Shown one piece after another: positions 1 to 64,000 of a stretch of 64,000 bases of DNA. The notes under the pieces are model-generated. The model was given only the letters and a program-made list of their open reading frames with translations, was not told the DNA's origin and did not search any database. Both the position numbers and the translations under genes were made by a program. This DNA comes from Eledone cirrhosa (taxonomy: Eukaryota), in assembly GCA_964016885.1 (NCBI GenBank), contig OZ024760.1, positions 33,728,001-33,792,000 of the forward strand, given 5' to 3'. Position 1 is the stretch's first letter, and each line of letters opens with the position of its first letter.

Positions 1-1
<1 letters not shown>

Positions 2-49
<48 letters not shown>

Positions 50-64
50 ACACATATATATATA
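2..64. repeat. (CA)n microsatellite followed by a short (TA)n
   Basis: About 23 CA units read directly, then tatatatatatata. Confidence 0.95.
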
Positions 65-187
65 GTGTCTGATTGGTTAGAGAACTGGATTCACAATCGT
101 GAGGTTGTTAGTTCGATTCCTGGACCAGGCGATGCGTTATGTCCTTGAGCAAGACACTTTATTTCACGTTGCTCCTTCTAACTGGAG
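65..187 (+). mobile_element. Truncated tRNA-derived SINE with CORE-like central domain
   Basis: A-box-like TGATTGGTTAGAG (~70-82) and B-box GTTCGATTCC (111-120) at tRNA-like spacing. These are followed by TGTCCTTGAGCAAGACACTTT (~140-160), which resembles the CORE-SINE motif TGTGACCTTGGGCAAGTCACTT. No intact cloverleaf. The 3' boundary is approximate. Confidence 0.75.
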
Positions 188-835
188 TTGCGACCGATAG
201 ATAGTATTAGCAATTGGAAAGACCAACGGAAACATTGTTTCCTCGGTCCACTCCCTCAATATGTTTTATATACTACCCTCTACTCTCTACTTCACCCTCA
301 TCCGCGTACACACCACACTTATCCCTTTCTTTCTCCTTTTCTTTCTCGTTGTATTCTTAATCTTATTTTATAATTTACTTTAATTTTTTTTTTCCTTTGT
401 TCCGACCATCTGACCAACACAATCCCTCTGTTCCTCTTTCGTATCCTTTCATCCCCGCGTCCGATATCGCTTCTACTCATCCCTGCAATCTCACCCAGCA
501 CCCTCACATCACCACATAAACGCTAAATTGCCTACAAAACACCACACCTTCACAACTTCCACCAAGCAATGCTTCCCCTTCACCACCATCTCTCTTTCAC
601 CATCGCTTCATTATAATTCTCCCCCTCACCTATCACACATAACCAAAACATTCCTTCTAGCAAAACCACCTATCAAAACGAACTAAAACTGACCGCCATG
701 TATGAATGTAAATCGTTATATACTGTTTCAAAGCCTTAAGAGGTTCATTCTGTCATTACCACAACAGCCGACGAGATTTTGATTCCAGAGTCTCTACTCA
801 ATAAACGCAATGAAGACCTAACAAATCGTCTTTTT

Positions 836-945
<110 letters not shown>

Positions 946-996
946 GTCTTATGGTAGCTAGGATCCGTCCATAGGCGGTATGCCGGTTGTGTGTGC

Positions 997-999
<3 letters not shown>

Positions 1000-1027
<28 letters not shown>
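1000..1027. repeat. (TA)n microsatellite
   Basis: Read directly. Confidence 0.9.
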
Positions 1028-1322
1028 CTATAAAGTATGTCCATAGAATCATTTGATAATATATATACACCATTTCCTCTCACAATAAGCATAATCAACC
1101 ACACAAAAAACCAATTGAACCAGGCTATAAGATTAAAATGCATCTATGAAGAAATAGTAGATAAATAAACGACAGCAATCTATTCGCGATCAACCGCTAT
1201 TTGAATATTTACCCAACATTTCAATAGCATGTGTCAACCATACACAATTAGGTATAACATTAAAGTTAGAAAAAAAAATGCATATACACATACCAGGATT
1301 ACGTTTCTACCGCTTATATATA

Positions 1323-1387
1323 TAAAGAATGCAACCATTACTGTTGGAAGCTCCCAGAGCTTCCAACAGTAATGGTTGCATTCTTTA
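1323..1387. repeat. Perfect 31-bp inverted repeat with 3-nt loop (hairpin; possible minimal MITE)
   Basis: TAAAGAATGCAACCATTACTGTTGGAAGCTC (1323-1353), loop CCA, exact reverse complement at 1357-1387. Begins and ends with TA. Confidence 0.92.
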
Positions 1388-1531
1388 AGGGTATGTCAAT
1401 ATTTATTTATAAAACTGCTCTATATTATATTTTATCTGATGAAAGCACACCATAATTTAACTTGGTGTCCTTGAAATATGTATAATGAAATAAATATGGT
1501 TTTATAAATATAGTTTCCATTTGTTAATATC

Positions 1532-1532
<1 letters not shown>

Positions 1533-1588
<56 letters not shown>
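1533..1588. repeat. (TA)n microsatellite
   Basis: Read directly. Confidence 0.95.
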
Positions 1589-1593
<5 letters not shown>

Positions 1594-2386
1594 ACAAATA
1601 AAGATTCAGCGAGAGTCGCATTTTCGGCGGGCAGGAAAAAAAAAGCGAAGCGAAACGCAAATATATATATATAAAGAATTAGTATATCTAGTAACATATA
1701 TATACACACAGATGCATACTTATGCTAGCAAATATATAGGTTTTGTCTTAGTAACTTTGTAGTTCAATGCATGGGGTTGCAGAACAATAATATGAGAGAC
1801 GTAAAATAAGAAAATTATAAAATTAACTTACTTACTAAAATTTCACTCCCAACTAATTAGTTTCTGAAAGGGAATAAACATACTTTCCGAAGAAGTGTAC
1901 AGAGAAGCCTTTCGTCATCAGGGAAGTCTATTCTCAGCTAAGTTTCCAGGCAATACGTGGACACTGGGAACTTATACAAAAATAATTCAGTGGATAGAAA
2001 AAAGCAAAGCGTGGACTAAATTCCTAGCCATTGAGAAAATCACTGCCTACTGCGTCGGTGGCAAATTCAAAAGAATCAATCACGTGACATATATATATAT
2101 ATATATTGTTATATATGGGGAGGGTCATATTGTTATCATATTGCCAGAAATAACAACAGAACACACTCACTGTTTGGTTTGGATTGGTTTTCGCTTCTGT
2201 ATCTTTTATATCTCCATAGTTAATTTATCTGGCAATCAATTTTTATCATAGATTGACCAACGGTTAAAAATACAGATATAAATATATATAATCTATCAAA
2301 GTTCTTTCGTCACACATCTGTGACATCATCAGTGGTACTATTATGTTTCCTCCCGTTATATGTGTGTGTATGTGTCTGTCTGTCTT

Positions 2387-2494
<108 letters not shown>

Positions 2495-2764
2495 TTATTC
2501 CGGGTTGAATCGGAGGTAACCACAGAAGTAAGGTACTCAATACATAGCAGAGTATAAAAGTTTTAATATAGATGGCCTTTGTCACTCTAAGTAGAGCTTT
2601 AAAGAATTAGCTTTTAATGATTTCCCTTTTCTTTCAACCAATGACCTCCACCCATCCCACTCCTACCACATGAACAGATATAAATACCACTACATTTATT
2701 TTTGGAAAGCCAGATTCCTGGTGATTTCTAAAGAATGAAACAGTTCTAGTCTTGTCGAATCTCA

Positions 2765-2765
<1 letters not shown>

Positions 2766-2801
<36 letters not shown>
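2766..2801. repeat. (TA)n microsatellite
   Basis: Read directly. Confidence 0.9.
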
Positions 2802-2809
<8 letters not shown>

Positions 2810-2962
2810 TAATGGAAAATATTATTTATAATACCATATTTATTTTATTATAAGTATTTCAATCACACAAAGTTTTTGTGTGCTTTCATCAGATGAAATA
2901 TAATATTTGGTGTTAAGATACTCACTTTGTGGAATGATAATCAACAAACCATATAACTCATT

Positions 2963-2965
<3 letters not shown>

Positions 2966-3017
<52 letters not shown>
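2966..3017. repeat. (TA)n microsatellite
   Basis: Read directly. Confidence 0.95.
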
Positions 3018-3019
<2 letters not shown>

Positions 3020-3260
3020 TGAAGAATAACATGGTCGGCTGTACAAAAAGGGTTTTATTTACAATATTAACAATTGTTTCATTGATCAGATGAGTCTAAA
3101 GGCCGCTAATCACTCGAAGTTGCGTCACTCGACCTTAAATACAGTGTGTCTCTGATCAAATCATCGGAATACTGGAAGGTATTTAGCAGCTTCTACCATG
3201 GTCGGCCGCCCTCATTCCATACGGAATGACCAGTTCTATCCAGTGGTGAACCAACAAACC

Positions 3261-3271
3261 TAAATAAATAA

Positions 3272-3366
<95 letters not shown>
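3261..3366. repeat. (TAAA)4 followed by a long (TA)n microsatellite
   Basis: Read directly; about 45 TA units. Confidence 0.95.
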
Positions 3367-3367
<1 letters not shown>

Positions 3368-3443
3368 CGAAGGAGGTGTGGTAAGGAACCAGATGGATCA
3401 TAACGCACCAGAGTACTTAATACTTAGGGTAGTAGAGTTGGTA

Positions 3444-3585
3444 ATAGGAAAAAGTATGACTCCGACGGCAGAGCTCAAGCCGTTTCGACGGCTATTTCTG
3501 GACTGAAATAGCCATCGAAATAACCGTCCAGAAATAGCCGTCGAAACGGTTTGAGCTCTACCGTCGGGGTCATACTTTTTCCTAT
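3444..3585. mobile_element. MITE-like foldback element with 60-bp arms and a 22-bp spacer
   Basis: Arms 3444-3503 and 3526-3585 are reverse complements with 3 mismatches. Termini read TA-GGAAAAAGTATGAC...GTCATACTTTTTCC-TA, consistent with a TA target duplication as in Tc1/mariner-type MITEs. The inverted repeat is seen directly; the MITE assignment is inferred. Confidence 0.7.
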
Positions 3586-3588
3586 ATA

Positions 3589-3620
<32 letters not shown>

Positions 3621-4242
3621 CTAGCAGCAGTACCCAGCGTTGCCTGGGTAGGTAAAATAATATCTGCTTTGGTGAAAAGGTGTTGATCTTAGCGACTGCT
3701 TCTCGATGACTCATCTATGGCCACACGCAGGCCATGCGGGAGGAGGGTGGTGCTGACCTCTATCACTGAGAAACGCGGGTGACTGACGAAGGGGCATGCT
3801 GGGGGAGGGAGTTTCGAATTTGAAAGAAATCGGTTGAAAAATGTGGGAGCTAGAGCAGGAAAGGCGGAAATTTGAGCGAAAAGGTGGTATTTTCGAAAGT
3901 GGCTGCCACGCCGTTCCTGAACAAAAAATTAAAAATGTAAAGCCATTACAAGATGTGCAATGATAAATTCTATTTTGCTTTAAAATTTGAACGAAATCGA
4001 TGGCAAAATGTGGGAGCTAGAGCCAAAAATCTTATTTTTCGATACCTAAAAAAAGGTGACCCCTCTATCGATTTTTATCTGCAGAATGACTCCGGAATAA
4101 AAAAAAAACGATACGCTGATATATAGTAAACACTCCCCGATCACTAATCTATGAGCCTGTAAAGTTTCATGAAAATCGGTCGTAAGATGTAGGCCCCTAT
4201 AGATAACACACACACGCATAGTTAATTTTATATATATACAGA
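3621..4242 (-). mobile_element. Non-autonomous Helitron, ~622 bp
   Basis: The minus strand begins A|TCTGTATATATATAAAA (4242 downward) and ends with the hairpin TACCCAG-GCAACG-CTGGGTA, a 6-nt spacer and CTAG|T (3621). A 5' TC, 3' CTRR, subterminal hairpin and A/T insertion site without TSD are the Helitron hallmarks. No RepHel ORF. Confidence 0.8.
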
Positions 4243-4304
4243 TATATCCCTATCTCTCTATCTCTCTTTATGTATAAACATTCTTTCTTTCTATCCTCCC
4301 CCTA

Positions 4305-4323
4305 CCCCCCCCCCCCCCCCCCC
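4305..4323. repeat. Poly-C tract in the pyrimidine-rich region upstream of the exon A acceptor
   Basis: About 19 C, flanked on both sides by CTATCCTCCCCCTA. Confidence 0.8.
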
Positions 4324-4373
4324 TATCTACCTATCCTCCCCCTATCTTATGCTCTTCTTTACATGTTTTCCAG

Positions 4374-4793
4374 GTGACCAGTGCAACGAACCAGGTTACA
4401 GTTGTTCAGTTTACGAAGTCAACAAATGTCAGAATCCTTTGTTTGTCTGTCCGGATAAGATAAACCCGGCCGTGTACTATTGTGTTAAAAATATCACAAT
4501 AACCACCACCACCCCTACTCCTACCACAACCCCTGCTCCCACCACCACCACCACCACCACCCCTGCTCCCACCACCACCACCCCTGCTCCCACCACCACC
4601 ACCCCTGCTCCCACCACCACCACCACCACCACCACCCCTGCTCCCACCACCACCACCACCACCCCTGCTCCCACCACCACCCCCACCACCCCTGCTCCTG
4701 CCACCACCACTGCCCCTACCACCACCACTACAACAACCGCCCCCACCACTACAACCCCCGGCACCACAACGACACCAGCACCAGGCAGGGCAG
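4374..4793 (+). CDS. Internal coding exon A (420 bp, phase 1-1): 5-Cys module plus Pro/Thr mucin-like stalk of a probably extracellular protein
   Basis: Acceptor ctcttctttacatgttttccAG|GT at 4373/4374 and consensus donor CAG|GTAAGT at 4793/4794. Open frame xDQCNEPGYSCSVYEVNKCQNPLFVCPDKINPAVYYCVKNITITTTTPTP(T)nPAP...PAPGRA. An N-glycosylation sequon (NIT) sits at the domain junction. Confidence 0.85.
4501..4785 (+). repeat. Coding VNTR: CCTGCTCCC(ACC)n, i.e. PAP(T)n units
   Basis: About 7 CCTGCTCC units separated by ACC runs of variable length; all length changes are in frame. Confidence 0.9.
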
Positions 4794-4965
4794 GTAAGTG
4801 AGAGGAGGGGTGAGAGGAGGTGAGTGGGGGGGTAGAGTCGGGAGGAGGTAAAAGAAGGGATAAATAAGATGATGCTGATGATGATGAGTAATAATTAAGA
4901 GTTCACCTTCGGTCAATCAGATGTAGAAAGACGCTCCACCCGTAACCATCCCGTCTGTTTGAGTG

Positions 4966-7365
4966 CACCCCGATGGTGTAGGGCCTCCAGTATATTACCC
5001 TAGAGCCCCCCCCCCCGAGGGTGTAGGACCACCAGTATATTACTCTCGTGCCCCCCGAGGGTGTAGGACCGCCAGTATATTACTCTAGTGCCCCCCGAGG
5101 GTGGAGGGCCACCAGTATATTACTCTAGTGCCCCCCGAGGGTGTAGGACCGCCAGTATATTACTCTAGTGCCCCCCGAGGGTGGAGGGCCACCAGTATAT
5201 TACTCTAGTGCCCCCCGAGGGTGTAGGACCGCCAGTATATTACTCTAGTGCCCCCCCGGGGGTGTAGGGCCACCAGTATATTACTCTAGTGCCCCCCGAG
5301 GGTGTAGGACCGCCAGTATATTACTCTAGTGCCCCCCGAGGGTGGAGGGCCACCAGTATATTACTCTAGTGCCCCCCGAGGGTGTAGGACCGCCAGTATA
5401 TTACTCTAGTGCGCCCCGAGGGTGGAGGGCCACCAGTATATTACTCTAGTGCCCCCCGAGGGTGTAGGACCGCCAGTATATTACTCTAGTGCCCCCCGAG
5501 GGTGGAGGGCCACCAGTATATTACTCTAGTGCCCCCCGAGGGTGTAGGACCGCCAGTATATTACTCTAGTGCCCCCCGAGGGTGTAGGACCACCAGTATA
5601 TTACTCTAGTGCCCCCCGAGGGTGGAGGGCGACCAGTATATTACTCTAGTGCCCCCCGAGGGTGTAGGACCGCCAGTATATTACTCTAGTGCCCCCCGAG
5701 GGTTTAGGACCGCCAGTATATTATTCTAGTGCCCCCCGGGGGTGTAGGGCCACCAGTATATTACTCTAGTGCCCCCCGAGGGTGTAGGACCGCCAGTATA
5801 TTACTCTAGTGCCCCCCGAGGGTGGAGGGCCACCAGTATATTACTCTAGTGCCCCCCGAGGGTGTAGGACCGCCAGTATATTACTCTAGTGCCCCCCGAG
5901 GGTGTAGGACCACCAGTATATTACTCTAGTGCCCCCCGAGGGTGGAGGGCGACCAGTATATTACTCTAGTGCCCCCCGAGGGTGTAGGACCGCCAGTATA
6001 TTACTCTAGTGCCCCCCGAGGGTGGAGGGCCACCAGTATATTACTCTAGTGCCCCCCGAGGGTGTAGGACCGCCAGTATATTACTCTAGTGCCCCCCGAG
6101 GGTGTAGGACCACCAGTATATTACTCTAGTGCCCCCCGAGGGTGGAGGGCGACCAGTATATTACTCTAGTGCCCCCCGAGGGTGTAGGACCGCTAGTATA
6201 TTACTCTAGTGCCCCCCGAGGGTGTAGGACCGCCAGTATATTACTCTAGTGCCTCCCGAGGGTGGAGGGCCACCAGTATATTACTCTAGTGCCCCCCGAG
6301 GGTTTAGGACCGCCAGTATATTATTCTAGTGCCCCCCGGGGGTGTAGGGCCACCAGTATATTACTCTAGTGCCCCCCGAGGGTGTAGGACCGCCAGTATA
6401 TTACTCTAGTGCCCCCCGAGGCTGGAGGGCCACCAGTATATTACTCTAGTGCCCCCCGAGGGTGGAGGGCCCCCAGTATATTACTCTAGTGCCCCCCGGG
6501 GGTGTAGGACCGCCAGTATATTACTCTAGTGCGCCCCGAGGGTGGAGGGCCACCAGTATATTACTCTAGTGCCCCCCGGGGGTGTAGGGTCGCTAGTATA
6601 TTACTCTAGTGCCCCCTGAGGGTGGAGGGCCACCAGTATATTTCTCTAGAGCCCCCCGAGGGTGTAGGACCGCCAGTATATTATTCTAGTGCCCCCCGAG
6701 GGTGGAGGGCCACCAGTATATTACTCTAGTGCCCCCCGAGGGTGGAGGGCCACCAGTATATTACTCTAGTGCCCCCCGAGGGTGGAGGGCCACTAGTATA
6801 TTACTCTAGTGCCCCCCGGGGGTGTAGGACCGCCAGTATATTACTCTAGTGCCCCCCCGAGGGTGGAGGGCCACCAGTATATTACTCTAGTGCCCCCCGG
6901 GGATGTAGGACCGCCAGTATATTACTCTAGTGCCCCCCGAGGGTGGAGGGCCACCAGTATATTACTCTAGAGCCCCCCGAGGGTGTAGGGCCACCAGTAT
7001 ATTACTCTAGTGCCCCCCCCCGGGGTGTAGGGCCACCAGTATATTACTCTAGTGCCCCCCTCCCCCCGGGGGTGTAGGGCCACCAGCATATTACTCTAGT
7101 GCCCTCCCGGGGGTGTAGGGCCACCAGTATATTACTCTAGTGCCCCCGAGGGTGTAGGGCCACCAGTATATTACTCTAGAGCCCCCCGAGGGTGTAGGGC
7201 CACCAATATATTACTTTAATACCATCCCCCGAGGGTGTAGGACCGCCAGTATATTACTCTAGTGCCTCCCAGGGGTGTAGGGCCGCTAGTATATTACTCT
7301 AGAGCCCCACAAGGGTGTAGGCCCGCCAGTATATTACTCTAGTGCCCCCTGGGGTGTAGAGCCAC
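4966..7365. repeat. Intronic 40-bp GC-rich minisatellite, ~60 copies, two main variants
   Basis: Unit CCCGAGGGTGTAGGACCGCCAGTATATTACTCTAGTGCCC, interspersed with the variant ...GGTGGAGGGCCACCAG.... The 40-bp phase is exact over 5281-6840 and degenerates at both ends. Confidence 0.97.
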
Positions 7366-7404
7366 GATGTTAATCTATGTCTGCTTAAACTTTTATATTG
7401 TCTA

Positions 7405-8535
7405 TGTTAGTGTGTCTCTGTAGACACCACATGTTTTACAGTGTATCTTTGTTAGTGCTCCATGTTTGTCGTGTCTCTCTGTAGACACCACATGTTTTGT
7501 ATTATCATTCTGTAGACACCACATTTTCTAGTGTCTCTCTGTAGACACCACATGTTTAGTATTGTGTCCCTGTAGACACCAGATGTTTTGTATTGAGTCT
7601 CAGTAGACACCACATGTTTTGTATTGTCTCTCTGTAGATACCACATGTTTTCTAGTTTCTCTCTGTAGACACCACATGTTTTCTAGTGTCTCTCTGTAGA
7701 CACCACATGTTTTCTAGTGCCTCAGTAGACACCACATGTTTTGTATTGTGTCTCTGTAGACACCACATGTTTTGTATTGTCTCAGTAGACACCAGATGTT
7801 TTGAATTGTGTCTCTGTTAGTGCTACATGCTTAGTATTGTTTCTCTGTAGACACCACATCTTTTGAATTGTGTCTCTGTTAGTGCTACATGCTCAGTATT
7901 GTTTCTCTATAGACACCACATGTTTTGTATTGTGTCTCTGATAGTGCTACATGCTTAGCATTGTTTCTCTGTAGACACCACATCTTTTGAATTGTGTCTC
8001 TGTTAGTGCTACATGCTTAGTATTGTTTCTCTGTAGACAACACATCTTTTGAATTGTGTCTCTGTTAGTGCTACATGCTTAGTATTGTTTCTCTGTAGAC
8101 ACCACATCTTTTGAATTGTGTCTCTGTTAGTGCTACATGCTTAGTATTGTTTCTCTGTAGACACCACATCCTTTGAATTGTGTCTCTGATAGTGCTACAT
8201 GCTTAGCATTGTTTCTCTGTAGACACCACATCTTTTGAATTGTGTCTCTGTTAGTGCTACATGCTTAGTATTGTTTCTCTGTAGACACCACATCTTTTGA
8301 ATTGTGTCTCTGTTAGTGCTACATGCTTAGTATTGTTTCTCTGTAGACACCACATCTTTTGAATTGTGTCTCTGATAGTGCTACATGCTTAGCATTGTTT
8401 CTCTGTAGAAACCACATCTTTTGAATTGTGTCTCTGTTAGTGCTACATGCTTAGTATTGTTTCTCTGTAGACACCACATCTTTTGAATTGTGTCTCTGTT
8501 AGTGCTACATGCTTAGTATTGTGTCTCTGTAGACA
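7405..8535. repeat. Intronic ~31-bp minisatellite changing into a 62-bp (31+31) dimer array
   Basis: Monomers of about 29-32 bp (TGTGTCTCTGTAGACACCACATGTTTTGTAT) at 7405-7800. Then about 12 copies of TTGTTTCTCTGTAGACACCACATCTTTTGAA+TTGTGTCTCTGTTAGTGCTACATGCTTAGTA; GTAGAC at 7971, 8033 and 8095 gives a period of 62. Confidence 0.95.
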
Positions 8536-8562
8536 TTAAATATTTATATTGTGTCCTTGCAG

Positions 8563-8741
8563 GAGCTGGATGTCAGGAACCAGACGGACTTAGCTTGCCT
8601 AAGCCAAACTTTTGTCTCTACTCGACAAACGGAAAATGTCCAGCAATTGTGTTCCAAGTAGCCGACTTGGGTGCATGCGATCCTGGTTACAAGTGCTGCG
8701 TCTTAAAACAAACGGTAATTGTTATGGCACCTAACAACTGA
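8563..8741 (+). CDS. Coding exon B: 6-Cys beta-defensin-like module (ends at donor 8714/8715 or at stop TGA 8739-8741)
   Basis: Acceptor tattgtgtccttgcAG|GA at 8562/8563, phase 1, in frame with exon A. Translation (G)AGCQEPDGLSLPKPNFCLYSTNGKCPAIVFQVADLGACDPGYKCCVLKQT[VIVMAPNN*]. Cys spacing C-x13-C-x7-C-x12-C-x5-CC. It is a unique-sequence island between two tandem arrays and is not in the ORF track. Confidence 0.8.
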
Positions 8742-8756
8742 CCAGTATTGTGAGCG

Positions 8757-11700
8757 TTGTTGTTGTGGTGGAAGTGTTGGTGATGTGATGGTTGTTGTTG
8801 TGGTGGTAGTGTTGGTGATGTGATGGTTGTTGTGATGGTTGTTGTGATGGTGGTAGTGATGGTGTTGTGAGGGTTGTTGTTGTGGTGGTAGTGTTGGTGA
8901 TGAGATGGTTGTTGTTGTGGTGGTAGTGTTGGTGTTGTGATGGTTGTTGTTGTGGTGGTAGTGTTGGTTTGGTGGTTATTGTTGTTGTGGTGGTAGTGTT
9001 TGTGATGTGATGGTTGTTGTTGTGGTGGTAGTGTTGGTGTGGTGGTTGTTGTGGTGGTAGTGTTGGTGATGTGATGGTTGTTGTTGTGGTGGTAGTGTTG
9101 GTGTGGTGGTTGTTGTTGTGGTGGTAGTGTTTGTGATGTGATGGTTGTTGTTGTGGTGGTAGTGTTGGTGATGTGATGGTTGTTGTTGTGGTGGTAGTGA
9201 TGGTGTAGTGATGGTTGTTGTTTTGGTGGTAGTGTTGGTGTGGTGGTTGTTGTTGTGGTGGTAGTGTTGGTGATGTGATGGTTGTTGTGGTGGTGGTAGT
9301 GTTGGTGTGGTGGTTGTTGTTGTGGTGGTAGTGTTGGTGATGTGATGGTTGTTGTTGTGGTGGTAGTGTTGGTGTGGTGGTTGTTGTTGTGGTGGAAGTG
9401 TTGGTGATGTGATGGTTGTTGTTGTGGTGGTAGTGTTGGTGTGGTGGTTGTTGTGCTGGTAGTGTTGGTGATGTGATGGTTGTTGTTGTGGTGGTAGTGT
9501 TGGTGATGTGATGGTTGTGTTGTGGTGGTAGTGATGGTGTTGTGATGGTTATTGTTGTGGTGGTAGTGCTGGTGTGGTGGTTGTTGTTGTGGTGGTAGTG
9601 TTGGTGATGTGATGGTTGTTGTTGTGGTGATAGTGTTGGTGATGTGATGGTTGTTGTTGTGGTGGTAGGGTTGGTGATGTGATGGTTGTTGTTGTGGTGG
9701 TAATGTTGGTTTGGTGGTTATTGTTGTTGTGGTGGTAGTGTTTGTGATGTGATGGTTGTTGTTGTGGTGGTAGTGTTGGTGTGGTGGTTGTTGTTGTGGT
9801 GGAAGTGTTGGTGAGGTGATGGTTGTTGTTGTGGTGGTAGTGTTGGTGATGTGATGGTTGTGTTGTGGTGGTAGTGATGGTGTTGTGATGGTTATTGTTG
9901 TGGTGGTAGTGTTGGTGTGGTGGTTGTTGTTGTCGTGGTAGTGTTGGTGATGTGATGGTTGTTGTTGTGGTGGTAGTGTTGGTGATGTGATGGTTGTTGT
10001 TGTGGTGGTAGTGATGGTGTTGTGATGGTTGTTGTTGTGGTGGTAGTGTTGGTGATGTGATGGTTGTGGTTGTGGTGGTAGTGTTTGTGTGGTGGTTGTT
10101 GTTGTGGTGGTAGTGTTGGTGATGTGATGGTTGGTGTTGTGGTGGTAGTGTTGGTGATGTGATGGTTGTTGTTGTGGTGGTAGTGATGGTGTTGTGATGG
10201 TTGTTGTGGTGGTGGTAGTGTTGGTGTGGTGGTTGTTGTTGTGGTGGTAGTGTTGGTGATGTGATGTTTGTGGTTGTGGTGGTAGTGTTAGTGTGGTGGT
10301 TGTTGTTGTGGTGGTAGTGTTGGTGATGTGATGGTTGGTGTTGTGGTGGTAGTGTTGGTGATGTGATGGTTGTTGTTGTGGTGGTAGTGTTGGTGATGTG
10401 ATGGTTGTTGTTGTGGTGGTAGTGTTGGTGTGGTGGTTGTTGTTGTTGTGGTGGTAGTGTTGGTGTGGTGGTTGTTGTTGTTGTGGTGGTTTTGTTGGTG
10501 ATGTGATGGTTGTTGTTGTAGTGTTGGTGATGTGATGGTCGTTGTTGTGGTGGTAGTGATGGTGTTGTGAAGGTTGTTGTTGTGGTGGTAGTGTTGGTGA
10601 TGTGATGGTTGTTGTTGTGGTGGTAGTATTGGTGTTGTGATGGTTGTTGTTGCTGTGGTAGTGTTGGTGATGTGGTGGTTGTTGTTGTGGTGGTAGTGAT
10701 GGTGTTGTGATGGTTGTTGTTGTGGAGGTGTTGGTGTTGTGATGGTTGTTGTTGTGGTGGTAGTGTTGGTGTTGTGATGGTTGTTGTTGTTGTGGTAGTG
10801 TTGGTGATGTGATGGTTGTTGTTGTGGTGGTAGTGTTGGTGTTGTGATGGTTGTTGTTGTGGTGGTAGTGTTGGTGTTGTGATGGTTGTTGTTGTGGTGG
10901 TAGTTTTGGTGTTGTGATAGTTGTTGTTGTGGTGGTAATGTTGGTGTGGTGGTTGTTGTTGTGGTGGTAGTGTTGGTGTTGTGATAGTTGTTGTTGTGGT
11001 GGTAATGTTCGTGTGATGGTTGTTGTTGTGGTGGACCTGTTGGTGATGTGATGGTTGTTGTTGTGGTGGTAGTGTTGGTGTGTTGGTTGTTGTTGGTGAT
11101 GTGATGGTTGTTGTTGTGGTGGTAGTGTTGGTGTGGTGGTTGTTGTTTTGGTGGTAGTGATGGTGTTGTGATGGTTATTGTTGTGGTGGTAGTGTTGGTG
11201 TGGTGGTTGTTGTTGTGGTGGTAGTGTTGGTGATGTGATGGTTGTTGTTGTGGTGGTAGTGTTGGCGATGTGATGGTTGTTGTTGTGGTGGTAGTGTTGG
11301 TGTGGTGTTTGTTGTTGTGGTGGTAGTGTTGGTGATGTGATGGTTGTTGTTGTGGTGGTAGTGTTGGTGATGTGATGGTTATTGTTGTGGTGGTAGTGTT
11401 GGTGTGGTGGTAGTGTTGGTGATGTATTGGTTGTTGTTGTGGTGGTAGTGTTGGTGATGTGTTGGTTGCTGTTGTGGTGGTAGTGATGGTGTTGTGATGG
11501 TTATTGTTGTGGTGGTAGTGTTGGTGTGGTGGTTTTTGTTGTGGTGGTAGTGTTGGTGATGTGATGGTTGTTGTTGTGGTGGTAGTGTTGGTGTGGTGGT
11601 TGTTGCTGTGGTGGTAGTGTTGGTGATGTGATGGTTGTTGTTGTGGTGGTAGTGTTGGTGATGTGATGGTTGTTGTTGTGGTGGTAGTGTTGGTGATGTG

Positions 11701-14700
11701 ATGGTTGTTGTTGTGGTGGTTTTGTTGGTGATGTGATGGTTGTTGTTGTGGTGGTAGTGTTGGTGATGTGATGGTTGTTGTTGTGGTGGTAGTGTTGGTG
11801 TGGTGGTTGTTGCTGTGGGATTTGTGTTGGTGATGTGATGGTTGTTGTTGTGGTGGTAGTGTTGGTGATGTGATGGTTGTTGTTGTGGTGGTAGTGTTGG
11901 TGATGTGATGGTTGTTGTTGTGGTGGTAGTGTTGGTGTGGTGGTTGTTGTTGTGGTGGTAGTGTTGGTGATGTGATGGTTGTTCTTGTGGTGGTAGTGTT
12001 GGTGTTTTGATGGTTGTTGTTGTGGTGGTAGTGTTGGTGTTGTATTGGTTGTTGTTGTGGTTGTAGTGTTGGTGTTGTGATGGTTGTTGTTGTTGTGGTA
12101 GTGTTGGTGATGTGGTGGTTGTTGTTGTGGTGGTAGTGTTGGTGTTGTGATGGTTATTGCTGTGGTGGTAGTGTTGGTGTGGTGGTTGTTGTTGTGGTGG
12201 TAGTGTTGGTGATGTGATGGTTGTTGTTGTGGTGGTAGTGTTGGTGATGTGATGCTTGTTGTTGTGGTGGTAGTGTTGGTGTTGTGATGGTTGTTGTTGT
12301 GGTGGTAGTGTTGGTGTTGTGATGGTTGTTGTTGTGGTGGTAGTGTTGGTTTGGTGGTGGTTGTTGTGGTCGTAGTGTTTGTGATGTAATGGTTGTTGTA
12401 GTGGTGGTAGTGTTGGTGTTGTGGTGGTTGTTGTTGTGGTGGTAGTATTGGTGTTGTGATGGTTGTTGTTGTGGTGGTAGTGTTGGTGTGGTGGTTGTTG
12501 TTGTGGTGGTAGTGTTGGTGATGTGATGGTTGTTGTTGTGGCGGTAGTGTTGGTGTGGTGGTTATTGTTGTTGTGGTGGTAGTGTTTGTGATGTGATGGT
12601 TGTTGTTGTGGTGGTGGTGTTGGTGTTGGGATAGTTGTTGTTGTGGTGGTAATGTTGGTGTGATGGTTGTTGTTGTGGTGGACCTGGTGGTGATGTGATG
12701 GTTGTTGTTGTGGTGGTAGTGTTGGTGATGTGATGGTTGTTGTTGTGTTGGTAGTGTTGGTGATGTTATGATTGTTGTTGTGGTGGTAGTGATGGTGTTG
12801 TGATGGTTATTGTTGTGGTGGTAGTGTTGGTGTGGTGGTTGTTGTTGTGGTGGTAGTGTTGGTGATGTGATGTTTGTTTTTGTGGTGGTAGTGTTGGTGA
12901 TGTGATGGTTGTTTTTGTGGTGGTAATGATGGTGTTGTGATGGTTGTATGTTGTGGTGGTAGTGTTGGTTTGGTGGTTATTGTTGTTGTGGTGGTAGTGT
13001 TTGTGATGTGGTGGTTGTTGTTGTGGTGGTAGTGTTGGTGTGGTGGTTGTTGATGTGGTGGTAGTGTTGGTGATGTGATCGTTGTTGTTGTGGTGGTAGT
13101 GTTGGTGTGGTGGTTGTCGTTGTGGTGGTAGTGTTGGTGATGTGATGGTTGTTGTTGTGGTGGTAGTGTTGGTGATGTGATGGCTGTTGTTGTGGTGGTA
13201 GTGTTGGTGTGGTGGTTGTTGTTGTTGTGGTGGTAGTGTTGGTGTGGTGGTTGTTGTTGTTGTGGTGGTTTTGTTGGTGATGTGATGGTTGTTGTTGTGG
13301 TGGTAGTGTTGGTGATGTGATGGTCGTTGTTGTGGTGGTAGTGATGGTGTTGTGATGGTTGTTGTTGTGGTGGTAGTGTTGGTGATGTGATGGTTGTTGT
13401 TGTGGTGGTAGTGTTGGTGATGTGATGGTTGTTGTTGTGGCGGTACTGTTGGTGTGGTGGTTGTTATTGTGGTGGTAGTGTTGGTGATGTGATGGTTGTT
13501 GTGGTGGTGGTAGTGTTGGTGATGTGATGATTGTTGTTGTGGTTGTAGTGATGGTGTTGTGATGGTTATTGTTGTGGTGGTAGTTTTGGTGTGGAGGTTG
13601 TTGTTGTGGTGGTAGTGTTGGTGATGTGATGGTTGTTGTTGTGGTGGTAGTGTTGGTGATGTGATGGTTGTTGTTGTGGTGGTAGTGTTGGTGTTGTGAT
13701 AGTTGTTGTTGTGGTGTTATTGTTGGTGTTGTGATGGTTGTTGTTGTGGTGGTAATGTTGGTGTGATGGTTGTTGTTGTGGTGGACCTGTTGGTGATGTG
13801 ATGGTTTTTGTTGTGGTGGTAGTGTTGGTGTGGTGGGTGTTGTTTTGGTGGTAGTGTTGGTGATGTGATGGTTGTAGTTGTGGTGGTAGTGTTGGTGTTG
13901 TGATAGTTGTTGTTGTGGTGGTATGGTTGGTGTGATGGTTGTTGTTGTGGTGGACCTGTTGGTGATGTGATAGTTGTTGTTGTGGTGGTAATGTTGGTGT
14001 GGTGGTTGTTGTTGTGGTGGTAGTGTTGGTGATGTCATGGTGGTTGTTGTGGTGGTAGTGTTGATGTGATGGTTGTTATTGTGGTGGTAGTGATGGTGTT
14101 GTGATGGTTAGTGTTGTGGTGGTAGTTTTGGTGTGGGGGTTGTTGTTGTGATGGTACTTTTGGTGATGTGATGGTTGTTGCTGTGGTGGTAGTGTTGGTG
14201 ATGTGATGGTTGTTGTTGTGGTGGTAGTGTTGGTGTGGTGGTTGTTGTTGTGGTGGTAGTGTTGGTGATGTGATGGTTGTTCTTGTGGTGGTAGTGTTGG
14301 TGTTGTGATGGTTGTTGTTGTGGTGGTAGTGTTGGTGTTGTATTGGTTGTTGCTGTTGTGGTAGTGTTGGTGATGTGGTGGTTGTTGTTGTGGTGGTAGT
14401 GTTGGTGTTGTGATGGTTATTGCTGTGGTGGTAGTGTTGGTGTGGTGGTTGTTGTTGTGGTGGTAGTGTTGGTGATGTGATGGTTGTTGTTGTGGTGGTA
14501 GTGTTGGTGATGAGATGCTTGTTGTTGTGGTGGTAGTGTTGGTGTTGTGATGGTTGTTGTTGTGGTGGTAGTGTTGGTGTTGTGATGGTTGTTGTTGTGG
14601 TGGTAGTGTTGGTTAGGTGGTGGTTGTTGTGGTCGTAGTGTTGGTGATGTAATGGTTGTTGTAGTGGTGGTAGTGTTGGTGTGGTGGTTATTGTTGTTGT

Positions 14701-17700
14701 GGTGGTAGTGTTTGTGATGTGATGGTTGTTGTTGTGGTGGTAGTGTTGGTGTTGGGATAGTTGTTGTTGTGGTGGTATTGTTGTGATGGTTGTTGTTGTG
14801 GTGGACCTGGTGGTGATGTGATGGTTGTTGTTGTGGTGGTAGTGTTGGTGATGTGATGGTTGTTGTTGTGTTGGTAGCGTTGGTGATGTTATGATTGTTG
14901 ATGTGGTGGTAGTGATGGTGTTGTGATGGTTATTGTTGTGCTGGTAGTGTTGGTGTGGTGGTTGTTGTTGTGGTGGTAGTGTTGGTGATGTGATGTTTGT
15001 TTTTGTGGTGGTAGTGTTGGTGATGTGATGGTTGTTTTTGTGGTGGTAATGATGGTGTTGTGATGGTTGTATGTTGTGGTGGTAGTGTTGGTTTGGTGGT
15101 TATTGTTGTTGTGGTGGTAGTGTTTGTGATGTGGTGGTTGTTGTTGTGGTGGTAGTGTTGGTGTGGTGGCTGTTGATGTGGTGGTAGTGTTGGTGATGTG
15201 ATCGTTGTTGTTGTGGTGGTAGTTTTGGTGTTGTGATAGTTGTTGTGGTGGTGGTAATGTTGGTGTGGTGGTTGTTGTTGTGGTGGTAGTGTTGGTGTTG
15301 TGATAGTTGTCGTGGTGGTAGTGTTGGTGATGTGATGGTTGCTGTTGTGGTGGTAGTGGTGGTGTTGTGATGGTTATTGTTGTGGTGGTAGTGTTGGCGT
15401 GGTGGTTGTTGTTCTGGTGGTAGTGTTGGTGATGTGATGGTTGTTGTTGTGGTGGTAGTGTTGGTGTGGTTGTTGTTGCTGTGGTGGTAGGGTTGGTGAT
15501 GTGATGGTTGTTGTTGTGGTGGTAGTGTTGGTGATGTGATGGTTGTTGTTGTGGTGGTAGTGTTGGTGATATGATGGTTGTTGTTGTGGTGGTAGTGTTG
15601 GTGATGTGATGATTGTTGTTGTGGTTGTAGTGATGGTGTTGTGATTGTTATTGATGTGGTGGTAGTTATGGTGTGGAGGTTGTTGTTGTGGTGGTAGTGT
15701 TGGTGATGTGATGGTTGTTGTTGTGGTGGTATTGTTGGTGTTGTGATGGTTGTTGTTGTGGTGGTAATGTTGGTGTGATGGTTGTTGTTGTGGTGGACCT
15801 GTTGGTGATGTGATGGTTTTTGTTGTGGTGGTAGTGTTGGTGTGGTGGTTGTTGTTTGGTGGTAGTGTTGGTGATGTGATGGTTGTAGTTGTGATGGTAG
15901 TGTTGGTGTTGTGATAGTTGTTGTTGTGGTGGTAATGTTGGTGTGATGGTTGTTGTTGTGGTGGACCTGTTGGTGATGTGATAGTTGTTGTTGTGGTGGT
16001 AATGTTGGTGTGGTGGTTGTTGTTGTGGTGGTAGTGTTGGTGATGTCATGGTTGTTGTTGTGGTGGTAGTGTTGGTGATGTGATGGTGTTGTGATGGTTA
16101 TTGTTGTGGTGGTAGTTTTGGTGTGGGGGTTGTTGTTGTGATGGTACTTTTGGTGATGTGATGGTTGTTGTTGTGGTGGTAGTGTTGGTGATGTGATGGT
16201 TGTTGTTGTGGTGGTAGTGTTGGTGTGGTGGTTGTTGTTGTGGTGGTAGTGTTGGTGATGTGATGGTTGTTCTTGTGGTGGTAGTGTTGGTGTTTTGATG
16301 GTTGTTGTTGTGGTGGTAGTGTTGGTGTTGTATTGGTTGTTGTTGTGGTGGTAGTGTTGGTGTTGTGATGGTTGTTGTTGTTGTGGTAGTGTTGGTGATG
16401 TGATGGTTGTTGTTGTTGTGGTAGTGTTGGTGATGTGGTGGTTGTTGTTGTGGTGGTAGTGTTGGTGTTGTGATGGTTATTGCTGTGGTGGTAGTGTTGG
16501 TGTTGGGATAGTTGTTGTTGTGGTGGTAATGTTGGTGTGATGGTTGTTGTTGTGGTGGACCTGGTGGTGATGTGATGGTTGTTGTTGTGGTGGTAGTGTT
16601 GGTGATGTGATGGTTGTTGTTGTGTTGGTAGTGTTGGTGATGTTATGATTGTTGTTGTGGTGGTAGTGATGGTGTTGTGATGGTTATTGTTGTGGTGGTA
16701 GTGTTGGTGTGGTGGTTGTTGTTGTGGTGGTAGTGTTGGTGATGTGATGTTTGTTTTTGTGGTGGTAGTGTTGGTGATGTGATGGTTGTTTTTGTGGTGG
16801 TAATGATGGTGTTGTGATGGTTGTATGTTGTGGTGGTAGTGTTGGTTTGGTGGTTATTGTTGTTGTGGTGGTAGTGTTTGTGATGTGGTGGTTGTTGTTG
16901 TGGTGGTAGTGTTGGTGTGGTGGTTGTTGATGTGGTGGTAGTGTTGGTGATGTGATCGTTGTTGTTGTGGTGGTAGTGTTGGTGTGGTGGTTGTCGTTGT
17001 GGTGGTAGTGTTGGTGATGTGATGGTTGGTGTTGTGGTGGTAGTGTTGGTGATGTGATGGTTGTTGTTGTGGTGGTAGTGTTGGTGATGTGATGGCTGTT
17101 GTTGTGGTGGTAGTGTTGGTGTGGTGGTTGTTGTTGTTGTGGTGGTAGTGTTGGTGTGGTGGTTGTTGTTGTTGTGGTGGTTTTGTTGGTGATGTGATGG
17201 TTGTTGTTGTGGTGGTAGTGTTGGTGATGTGATGGTCGTTGTTGTGGTGGTAGTGATGGTGTTGTGATGGTTGTTGTTGTGGTGGTAGTGTTGGTGATGT
17301 GATGGTTGTTGTTGTTGTGGTAGTGTTGGTGATGTGATGGTTGTTGTTGTTGTGGTAGTGTTGGTGATGTGATGGTTGTTGTTGTGGTGGTAGTGTTGGT
17401 AATGAGATGGTTGTTGTTGTGGTGGTAGTGTTGGTGATGTGATGGTTGTTGTTGTGGTGGTAGTGTTGGCGTTGTGATAGTTGTTGTGGTGGTAATGTTG
17501 GTGTGATGGCTGTTGTTGTGGTGAACCTGTTGGTGATGTGATGGTTGTTGTTGTGGTGGTAGTGTTGGTGTGGTGGTTGTTGTTGTGGTGGTAGTGTTGG
17601 TGATGTGATGGTTGTTGTTGTGGTGGTAGTGTTGGTGATGTGATGGTTGTTGTTGTGGTGGTAGTGTTGGTGTGGTGGTTGTTGTTTTGATGGTAGTGAT

Positions 17701-62700: not shown

Positions 62701-64000
62701 GTAGTGTTGGTGTGGTGGTTGTTGTTGTGGTGGTAGTGATGGTGATGTGATGTTTGTTGTTCTGGTGGTAGTGATGGTGTTGTGATGGTTATTGTTGTGG
62801 TGGTAGTGTTGCTGATGTGATAGTTGTTGTTGTTGTGGTAGTGTTAGTGTTGTGATGGTTGTTGTTGTAGTGGTAGTGATGGTGTTGTGATGGTTGTTGT
62901 TGTGGTGGTAGTGTTGGTGATGTCTTTGTTGTTGTTCTGGTGGTAGTGTTGGTGCGGTGGTTGTTGTTGTGGTGGTAGTATTGGTGATGTGATGGTTGTT
63001 GTTGTGGTGGTAGTGATGGTGATGTGATGGTTGTTGTTGTGGTGGTAGTGATGGTGTTGTGATGGTTGTTCTTGTGGTGGCAGTGTTGGTGTGGTTGTTG
63101 TTGTGGTGGTAGTGTTGGTGATGTGATGGTTGTTGTGGTGGTGGTAGTGTTGGTGTGGTGGTTGTTGTTGTGGTGGTAGTATTGGTGATGTGATGGTTGT
63201 TGTTGTGGTGGTAGTGTTGGTGATGTGATGGTTGTTGTTGTGGTGGTAGTGTTGGTGATGTGATGGTTGTTGTTGTGGTGGTTTTGTTGGTGATGTGATG
63301 GTTGTTGTTGTGGTGGTAGTGTTTGTGATGTGATGGTTGTTGTTGTGGTGGTAGTGTTGGTGATATGATGGTTGTTGTTGTGGTGGTAGTGATGGTGTTG
63401 TGATGGTTGTTGTTGTGTCGGTGATGTGGTGGTTGTTGTTGTGGTGGTAGTGATGGTGTTGAGATGGTTATTGTTGTGGTGGTAGTTTTGGTGTGGTGGT
63501 TGGTGTTGTTGTGGTGGTAGTGTAGGTGATGTGATGGTTGTTGTTGTGGTGGTAGTGTTGGTTATGTGATGGTTGTTGTTGTGGTGGTAGTGATGGTGTT
63601 GTGATGGTTATTGTTGTGGTGGTAGTGTTGGTGTGCTGGTTGTTGTTGTGGTGGTAGTGTTGGTGATGTGATGCTTGTTCTTGTGGTGGTAGTGTTGGTG
63701 ATGTGATGTTTGTTGTTGTGGTGGTAGTGATGGTGTTGTGATGGTTGTTCTTGTGGTGATAGTGTTGGTGTGGTGGTTATTGTTGTTTTGTGGTAGTGTT
63801 GGTGATGTGATGGTTGTTGTTGTGGTGGTAGTGTTGGTGTGGTGGTTGTTGTTGTGGTGCTAGTGTTGGTGATGTGATGGTTGTTGTTGTGGTGGTAGTG
63901 TTGGTGATGTGATGGTTGTTGTTGTGGTGGTAGTGTTGGTGATGTCTTTGTTGTTGTTCTGGTGGTAGTGTTGGTGCGGTGGTTGTTGTTGTGGTGGTAG
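8757..64000. repeat. Giant G/T-strand satellite of 35-bp and 32-bp units, >55 kb (roughly 1,600 units), running off the window end
   Basis: Consensus GTGGTGGTAGTGTTGGTGATGTGATGGTTGTTGTT (35 bp) and GTGGTGGTAGTGTTGGTGTGGTGGTTGTTGTT (32 bp). Single orientation throughout, + strand almost C-free, no interrupting unique sequence seen. Confidence 0.98.
51778..61665. repeat. Near-identical 4,944-bp tandem duplication within the satellite
   Basis: Rare variants recur at a constant offset of 4,944: GGGA (A at 52389/57333), GTGACGGTC (C at 55256/60200), TGTCGG (C at 56204/61148). Junction at about 56722. Confidence 0.88.

What the first reader, a model, noticed from the sequence alone, without database searches (positions are those of the whole stretch)
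4374..8741. Spliced gene encoding two related Cys-rich, beta-defensin-like modules joined by a mucin-type Pro/Thr stalk
Seen: exon A (phase 1-1) splices in frame to exon B, which the ORF track misses. Exon B has six Cys ending GAC-x5-CC. The exon A module looks related: CNEPG vs CQEPDG, and CSVYEVNKC vs CLYSTNGKC, both with a 7-residue gap ending KC. Between the modules lie about 95 residues of PAP(T)n. Established: six Cys ending in CC, with G-x-C at the fourth Cys, is the pattern of the beta-defensin/big-defensin C-terminal fold, which some toxins and protease inhibitors also use. Phase-1 exon boundaries are typical of shuffled extracellular modules. Inference: a secreted multi-domain defensin-fold/mucin hybrid acting in mucus, skin, egg coat, venom or innate immunity. 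I do not recognise it as a named gene. The signal-peptide exon was not found and is presumably upstream.
Basis: partly seen in the sequence, partly recalled or inferred. Interest (0 to 1): 0.75.

Follow-up and report, generated by a model that had tools for sequence, protein, structure and literature searches.

The report
Octopus three-knot protein with mucin stalk
A four-exon gene in an octopus-type genome is predicted to encode a secreted 266-residue protein with two related cysteine-rich domains of no known family, a threonine/proline stalk and a likely defensin-fold head, and it probably works as a binding protein in mucus or a secretion, though no RNA, relative or activity confirms this yet.

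Summary
Left of the window lie a signal-peptide-like exon and a further cysteine-rich exon. The four exons join in frame over three phase-1 GT-AG introns into 266 codons. Two intron-split codons are Cys, so the protein has three six-Cys modules. Module 3 has the four-singles-plus-CC pattern and a three-strand model (pLDDT 56). Its fold matches are mostly defensin-like but none is significant. It is not a big defensin: the hydrophobic domain is absent, and a separate big-defensin-like exon lies on C11. Modules 1 and 2 match no family or fold. Net charges are near zero, which argues for binding rather than cationic killing. No homologue or RNA was found. Verdict: a probably real, lineage-restricted secreted protein with an architecture not found in ten paper searches; function inferred only.

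The parts
1..4373 (+). Right-hand part of intron 2 (5768 nt, GT-AG, phase 1). Two exons lie LEFT of the window. Exon 1: G000:C21:33726140-33726203 (L003 8140-8203), ATG plus 21 codons and 1 nt, signal-peptide-like. Exon 2: C21:33726468-33726605 (L003 8468-8605), 138 nt, phase 1-1, module 1 = C-x3-C-x6-C-x6-C-x8-C-x7-C with the first Cys codon split by intron 1 and one Lys-Arg pair after the last Cys.
   Evidence: Exon 1: A at -3 of the ATG, TATA-like box about 100 nt upstream, Lys at 6, hydrophobic core (7-residue hydropathy up to 3.0), small residues at -3/-1; judged by eye, no signal-peptide predictor available. Donor 1 reached by 4 of 5774 GT sites, acceptor 2 by 3 of 5972 AG sites, donor 2 by 18 of 5774. 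Exons 1-2 are covered without differences by contigs of DNA-like runs.
4374..4492 (+). Exon A (exon 3), first part. Module 2: C-x2-C-x6-C-x7-C-x6-C-x10-C, first Cys codon split by intron 2; one N-x-T sequon at its end.
   Evidence: related to module 1. Acceptor reached by 10 of 5972 AG sites.
4493..4793 (+). Exon A, Thr/Pro stalk (97 codons of PAP(T)n units, 4493-4783) and exon end; predicted O-glycosylated rod
   Evidence: Glycosylation is inferred from composition. Donor reached by 2 of 5774 GT sites.
4794..8562 (+). Intron 3 (3769 nt, GT-AG, phase 1), filled by a 40-bp minisatellite (4962-7365, 59.7 copies) and a 62-bp minisatellite (7411-8535, 18.3 copies)
8563..8741 (+). Exon B (exon 4) coding part. 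Module 3: C-x13-C-x7-C-x12-C-x5-CC, likely trans-defensin (beta-defensin-type) fold, then a short tail and TGA.
   Evidence: Acceptor weaker than the others: 140 of 5972 AG sites score as high.
8715..8720 (+). Possible alternative donor (phase 0) five codons after the CC pair
   Evidence: 113 of 5774 GT sites score as high; use untested
8748..64000 (.). 35-bp G/T-rich satellite, 67.5 kb in all, running on to about C21:33,804,245. Not coding; either a huge last intron or 3' flank. A candidate last exon lies RIGHT of the window (C21:33804343; L014 2343), 98 nt after the satellite; it would add only Ser then a stop, with poly(A)-type hexamers 0.6-1.0 kb further on.
   Evidence: stops in all six frames (60-92 per frame on -, over 1500 on +), no AATAAA/ATTAAA and no pyrimidine-rich acceptor inside. 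Candidate acceptor reached by 16 of 5972 AG sites; hypothetical.

Best explanation
Four exons join in frame into a 266-codon reading frame that likely encodes a secreted glycoprotein, in which a predicted O-glycosylated Thr/Pro rod would hold a likely beta-defensin-fold head apart from a tandem pair of related six-cysteine domains, so that it probably works as a tethered, multivalent binding protein in mucus or a glandular secretion rather than as a cationic pore-former. Shown: exon-intron anatomy, Cys arrays, stalk composition, the relation of modules 1 and 2, and near-neutral charge. Inferred: transcription and splicing, signal cleavage, nine disulfides, O-glycosylation, the fold of module 3, and the role. 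I think the most likely role is surface defence: one end binds microbes or their enzymes while the stalk and the other end keep the protein in the mucus layer. The gene likely arose by phase-1 exon shuffling plus one internal exon duplication.
For: Three GT-AG introns are all phase 1, the CDS is 801 nt without an internal stop, and two split codons supply the Cys that complete modules 1 and 2. Five of six splice sites rank within the top 0.4% of local AG/GT sites, exon B's acceptor within 2.3% (the matrix came from 12 neighbour exons picked by a similar rule, so it is partly circular). The blind exon scan returned otherwise only 12 exons of a neighbour gene (7 of 7 tested pass Pfam cut-offs) and 2 pieces of a retroelement-like ORF. 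Module 1 vs 2: 24 of 5000 full and 94 of 5000 Cys-fixed shuffles. Module 3: four single Cys plus CC is the stated beta-defensin-fold pattern (PMC6627431, passages); model has three strands with the CC on the last; 6 of 7 Foldseek rows are AvBD2, Ueq 12-1 and four hBD1 mutants; 2 of 3 VIA rows are a SCRiP and cryptdin-4. A phase-1 intron sits directly before the Cys domain, as in big and beta-defensin genes (PMC7203481, passages). Charges at pH 7 of the exon-encoded parts: +1.0, -1.3, -0.3. Precedent for a defensin core with an O-glycosylated tail acting in coating and adhesion: DEFB126 (PMC4744710, passages).
Against: No orthologue was found: word-seeded searches with exon B and modules 1+2, and a full HMMER search with exon B, whose single hit is a tandem-repeat ORF matched over 19 residues. 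So no conservation test was possible. All fold matches are below significance (E 5.9-9.7; Z 2.1-2.6, with aerolysin tied at 2.5; 0 of 7 reach Z 2 on re-alignment), and only 1 of 5 models of module 3 reached pLDDT 56 (others 39-42). The gaps 13 and 7 are longer than in avian beta-defensins (Cx4-7Cx3-4Cx9-10Cx5-6CC, PMC9138766) and cephalopod big defensins (5,3,13,4,0). BLASTP gave no alignment of modules 1 and 2. Phase 1 is common in secreted modules generally, so it is weak support for defensin ancestry. Nothing here shows tissue or target.
Confidence: 0.4

Rival explanations
1. Salivary or venom precursor: the modules are released by proteolysis (Lys-Arg after module 1) and act on prey ion channels or receptors.
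For: The beta-defensin fold is used by sea anemone neurotoxins (PMC6627431). Weak fold rows include toxins for module 3 and two scorpion toxins for module 1. Module 1 ends in a dibasic pair.
Against: Only one dibasic site, none flanking module 3. No gene cluster was found (these searches are insensitive). Four short motifs were absent from an O. vulgaris salivary-gland supplement, which was cut when stored and is from a possibly different species.
Confidence: 0.17
2. Multi-headed protease or glycosidase inhibitor, each disulfide module blocking one enzyme, with the stalk as spacer.
For: Small neutral three-disulfide modules in tandem are typical of inhibitors (established knowledge, recalled). 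A beta-defensin-like amylase inhibitor from anemone mucus is known (PMC6835510, search listing only).
Against: No inhibitor family in Pfam matched any module; a genome search with I68 did not hit the locus. These blanks are weak because Pfam also missed the C11 big-defensin-like exon.
Confidence: 0.15
3. Structural or coating protein of gametes, egg capsule, spermatophore or sucker cuticle, cross-linking through its Cys modules.
For: Fast divergence with no detectable relatives fits reproductive proteins (established knowledge, recalled); DEFB126 precedent.
Against: An even Cys count in each module leaves no spare Cys for intermolecular bonds. No tissue data.
Confidence: 0.15
4. Exon B does not belong to this transcript, or the locus is no longer expressed.
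For: Exon B's acceptor is the weakest; it is walled in by satellites, and no poly(A) signal follows for 67.5 kb. No protein-database trace.
Against: All four exons are intact and in frame; exon B is the only CC-type Cys array in 264 kb and follows 3.8 kb after an open phase-1 donor.
Confidence: 0.13

Closest known systems
Big defensins of cephalopods (PMC7203481; Pfam PF14862)
   Same: Signal peptide; last coding exon begins at a phase-1 intron and holds six Cys ending in CC with a short tail.
   Different: No hydrophobic N-terminal domain, the family hallmark. Cys gaps 13,7,12,5,0 against 5,3,13,4,0. No BLASTP alignment to the big-defensin-like exon on C11. Near neutral, whereas the three cephalopod entries have values of 8.6-9.4 in what appears to be the pI column.
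Multi-domain beta-defensins such as AvBD11 and helofensin (PMC9138766)
   Same: Several three-disulfide modules behind one signal peptide; in AvBD11 one module per exon.
   Different: Only the last module has the CC pattern; modules 1 and 2 do not; a 97-residue Thr/Pro stalk intervenes.
DEFB126, primate sperm-coating beta-defensin (PMC4744710)
   Same: Defensin-type core joined to a heavily O-glycosylated segment; works in coating and adhesion.
   Different: There the glycosylated tail is C-terminal and there is one Cys domain. An analogy only; no homology was tested.
Cnidarian SCRiPs, Ueq 12-1 and beta-defensin-fold anemone peptides (PMC6627431)
   Same: Top but non-significant fold rows for module 3; three-stranded core.
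   Different: SCRiPs have 8-10 Cys with a CCC triplet; module 3 has six and a CC pair.
EGF / follistatin-N-like modules (resemblance partly recalled)
   Same: The last hairpin of module 1 gives a weak Pfam EGF_BRNP1-3 match (E 0.12, residues 25-35) and weak Foldseek rows to EGF domains (3 of 11, E 5.6-9.8).
   Different: No C-x-C pair in modules 1 or 2; no match reaches a cut-off; VIA finds nothing at Z 2 or more.

Membership tests
Trans-defensin / beta-defensin fold (module 3) | Six Cys: four singles, then a CC pair near the C-terminus | tested here: met
   Gaps 13,7,12,5,0; definition in PMC6627431
Trans-defensin / beta-defensin fold (module 3) | Three antiparallel strands with the CC on the last | tested here: inconclusive
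   Strands 15-19, 29-31, 42-47 at pLDDT 56 in 1 of 5 models; fold matches not significant
Trans-defensin / beta-defensin fold (module 3) | Disulfides C1-C5, C2-C4, C3-C6 | not testable with these tools
   The model's coordinates are not returned; needs mass-spectrometric mapping or NMR
Beta-defensin / big defensin genes | Phase-1 intron at the 5' end of the Cys-rich exon | tested here: met
   G|GA junction, two residues before the first Cys; criterion in PMC7203481
Vertebrate beta-defensins | Cys spacing Cx4-7Cx3-4Cx9-10Cx5-6CC (avian monodomain) | tested here: not met
   Gaps 13, 7 and 12 lie outside; only the last gap fits
Big defensins | Hydrophobic N-terminal domain before the defensin-like domain | tested here: not met
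   A Thr/Pro stalk and two Cys modules stand there instead; hallmark stated in PMC7203481 section 3
Big defensins | Sequence match to the family | tested here: inconclusive
   No Pfam hit, but Pfam also missed the C11 big-defensin-like exon. No pairwise alignment to that exon; forced alignment is gappy.
Beta-defensin fold (modules 1 and 2) | CC pair at the end | tested here: not met
   Last gaps are 7 and 10
Cis-defensin / CS-alpha-beta (modules 1 and 2) | CXC motif on the last strand | tested here: not met
   No CXC in either module; definition in PMC9138766
EGF-like domains (modules 1 and 2) | C4-x-C5 pair (recalled consensus) and profile match | tested here: not met
   No CXC; best Pfam 12.7 bits against a cut-off of 27
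SCRiPs | 8-10 Cys with a CCC triplet | tested here: not met
   Six Cys, CC only
Clip-domain serine proteases (recalled resemblance of module 3) | Trypsin-type domain downstream of the clip | tested here: inconclusive
   No protease family among the 150 longest of 241 + strand open frames in the 88 kb after the satellite; short exons could be missed; both candidate 3' ends stop within 13 residues of the CC
Mucin-type domain | Long Pro/Thr/Ser-rich repeat | tested here: met
   97 residues, 63% Thr/Ser, 23% Pro
Mucin-type domain | O-glycosylation | not testable with these tools
   Needs glycoproteomics

The most novel reading that the evidence does not exclude
Modules 1 and 2 are a new three-disulfide domain family of octopods, and the gene is a natural case of the exon-shuffling route proposed for defensins: a big-defensin-type last exon recruited through its phase-1 intron behind a new leader of two unknown disulfide domains and a mucin stalk, giving a tethered defence or venom protein of a kind not described in cephalopods.
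Probability: 0.2. Interest if true: 0.62.

Novelty: new variant of a known kind. Interest (0 to 1): 0.4.

Why it matters
Cephalopod defence peptides are poorly catalogued; the Octopus and giant-squid big defensins were unannotated in their genomes (PMC7203481). If expressed, this gene adds an undescribed domain arrangement and an unassigned disulfide scaffold present twice, both small enough to synthesise and test. It would also give a test case for the idea that a defensin exon can be shuffled onto new leaders. It shows how satellite-filled introns and intron-split Cys codons hide such genes from ORF tracks. Without RNA, relatives or activity it remains one orphan secreted protein among many.

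Tried and rejected
Frame error: searches used exon 2 one base out of frame (shown), so their results are void; the genome search was redone and the database search was redone only as part of the module 1+2 alignment. Homologue searches: exon B among 103-2000 aa proteins, 0 of 8 candidates; modules 1+2 among 80-2000 aa proteins, 0 of 1; shorter proteins were covered only for exon B, by the HMMER search, whose one hit P0002 is a 939-aa singleton tandem repeat and was rejected as chance. PDB sequence searches of all three modules: 0. Metagenome contigs with exon B: 0 of 307 pattern matches confirmed. ESM Atlas gave no result for either module tried. RNA: no RNA holder listed; the three runs are one sample, and their contigs run across exon-intron borders like DNA, so they say nothing on expression. 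Fold of module 1 (modelled without its first Cys, pLDDT 66): 0 of 11 Foldseek rows significant, 0 of 48161 chains at Z 2 or more; module 2 was not modelled itself. Module 3 against viral structures: 0 of 8 rows significant. Paralogues: own-genome searches found only the locus itself, one chance match and the C28 fragment; a G-x-C-x-P-G-x-x-CC pattern gave 7 matches against 41 for the reversed control, and none of the 6 others is a similar exon. These searches are insensitive: the family search missed the C11 exon. The satellite as a giant mucin exon on the - strand: rejected (35-bp unit, stops in every frame). Literature: 10 searches showed no description of this architecture in their listings. 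Four short motifs were absent from two O. vulgaris proteome supplements (the second was cut); a third supplement could not be read and bioRxiv supplements are closed, so a match there is not excluded. Earlier scan notes: nothing near or alike. ShKT and lustrin/WR1 resemblances were considered from recalled spacings and dropped, as the gaps do not fit.
Full report
Setting. The window is G000:C21:33728001-33792000 in a 3.0-Gb genome. I take it to be octopod: earlier scan notes on this genome say so, and an exon on C11 closely resembles, by eye, the cephalopod big defensins printed in a paper's supplement. From 8748 to the end the window is one 35-bp satellite of 67.5 kb.

Observation. Exon A (4374-4793) and exon B (8563-8741) are as described, and join in phase 1 through a Gly codon. 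Exon B has six Cys with gaps 13,7,12,5,0; the stalk is 97 residues, 63% Thr/Ser and 23% Pro.

The gene is larger. In the 2 kb left of the window I found an ATG exon of 64 nt with signal-peptide features and, 264 nt on, a 138-nt phase-1-1 exon with five Cys. The codons split by introns 1 and 2 both read Cys, which brings modules 1 and 2 to six Cys each. The CDS is 801 nt, 266 residues, with introns of 264, 5768 and 3769 nt. A blind scan for Cys-rich phase-1-1 exons in 264 kb gave 16 hits: exon 2 and exon A on the + strand, 12 exons of a neighbour gene on the - strand (7 of 7 tested pass Pfam cut-offs) and 2 nested pieces of a retroelement-like ORF. The scan cannot see exon B, which has no strong phase-1 donor, nor short or Cys-poor exons. 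Against a matrix from the neighbour's exons, five of six splice sites rank in the top 0.4% of local sites and exon B's acceptor in the top 2.3%; the matrix is partly circular.

3' end. No poly(A) hexamer lies inside the satellite, which starts 7 nt after the stop. A strong acceptor lies 98 nt beyond it. Joined to a moderate donor at 8714/8715 it would add one Ser and a stop. Either way no further domain follows. No protease family was found among the 150 longest of 241 open frames further right.

Which modules are related. Modules 1 and 2 align at 30%; 24 of 5000 full shuffles and 94 of 5000 Cys-fixed shuffles score as high, modest but positive, though BLASTP reported no alignment. Module 2 against 3 gives 318 and 500 of 5000; module 1 against 3 gives 1083 and 1360.

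Module 3. It meets the pattern given for the beta-defensin fold (PMC6627431, passages) and has the phase-1 intron that big and beta-defensin genes share (PMC7203481, abstract, passages and sections 3 and 14). The single-sequence model has three strands, but pLDDT is 56 and four of five models are near 40. Foldseek returned 7 rows, all at E 5.9-9.7: AvBD2, Ueq 12-1, four hBD1 mutants and a luciferase. VIA gave 3 of 48161 chains at Z 2.1-2.6: a SCRiP, aerolysin and cryptdin-4. Re-alignment of the 7 gave none at Z 2. The fold is likely, not shown. Loops are longer than in avian beta-defensins (PMC9138766, passages). It is not a big defensin: the hydrophobic domain is missing, and the big-defensin-like exon on C11 has gaps 5,3,13,4,0 and no local alignment to it. 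That exon also got no Pfam hit, so Pfam blanks here carry little weight.

Modules 1 and 2. No CC and no CXC, so neither trans- nor cis-defensin. Module 1, folded without its first Cys, gives strand-helix-strand-strand at pLDDT 66 with no significant match; the last hairpin faintly recalls EGF. They are unassigned.

Relatives and expression. None found in protein collections, PDB or metagenomes; one database search was void through a frame error. Expression could not be tested. Contigs of one DNA-like sample cover exons 1-2 with no differences; it may be the source individual. A 90-bp copy of part of exon A on C28 has 4 substitutions, no splice sites and a stop.

Mechanism. Shown: anatomy and composition. 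Inferred: a secreted protein with nine disulfides and an O-glycosylated rod that separates two kinds of binding head. Near-neutral modules argue against cationic membrane lysis, although big defensins range from anionic to cationic. I favour a tethered binding protein of mucus or secretion with a surface-defence role (0.40), over a venom precursor (0.17), an enzyme inhibitor (0.15), a gamete or cuticle coat (0.15; DEFB126 precedent, PMC4744710 passages), or a partly unexpressed locus (0.13). That the gene is real and secreted I put at about 0.85.

Literature. Ten searches showed no such architecture in their listings. The main texts of bioRxiv 10.64898/2026.04.09.716377 (passages) and PMC7693380 (passages) hold no occurrence of 'defensin' or 'mucin'. 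Supplements searched: PMC10138644, PMC7693380 (cut), PMC7203481; that of PMC11431876 was unreadable.

Verdict. A probably real orphan gene with a new domain arrangement around a likely known fold. New variant of a known kind; interest 0.40.

Noticed in passing
L057 478-612, - strand (G000:C11 near 2,863,290): An exon that looks like the last exon of a cephalopod big defensin: phase-1 acceptor, Cys gaps 5,3,13,4,0, five residues then a stop after the CC. By eye it is closer to the giant-squid entry than to the Octopus sinensis entry in the supplement of PMC7203481. Pfam and the PF14862 genome search both missed it.
   Followed up: partly
L058 near 537 (G000:C5:35,221,636): A short match resembling the end of the O. 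sinensis big defensin, but with a stop just before it in that frame; a decayed copy or chance.
   Followed up: partly
L065 380-526 (G000:C275) and four matches about 5.1 kb apart on C1002: A 49-codon open frame with eight Cys including a CC pair, whose motif recurs on small contigs; no Pfam hit; may be a tandem-repeat element.
   Followed up: partly
L025 1504-1593 (G000:C28 near 70,486,600): A 90-bp copy of the Cys-coding part of exon A, 4 substitutions, between TA and GT microsatellites, without splice sites and with a stop: a dispersed non-coding fragment.
   Followed up: yes
L007 and L009-L012, - strand (C21:33,630,600-33,682,600): Divergently oriented neighbour gene with LDLa, Sushi, EGF-Ca, ephrin-receptor-like and PAN exons in phase 1; usable as a synteny anchor.
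   Followed up: partly
window 8748-64000 and on to C21:33,804,245: 67.5-kb strand-asymmetric 35-bp satellite starting 7 nt after the stop codon; if the alternative 3' end is used it would lie in a single intron of about 67.6 kb.
   Followed up: partly
L003 8238-8390 (intron 1): A short, very high-copy dispersed repeat fills most of the 264-nt first intron (summed contig depth up to about 100,000 against 2 in the exons).
   Followed up: no
L003 about 1000-3370 and the end of L004: Reverse-transcriptase-like ORFs of a retroelement, by eye Penelope-like (recalled), 5-8 kb upstream of the ATG.
   Followed up: no
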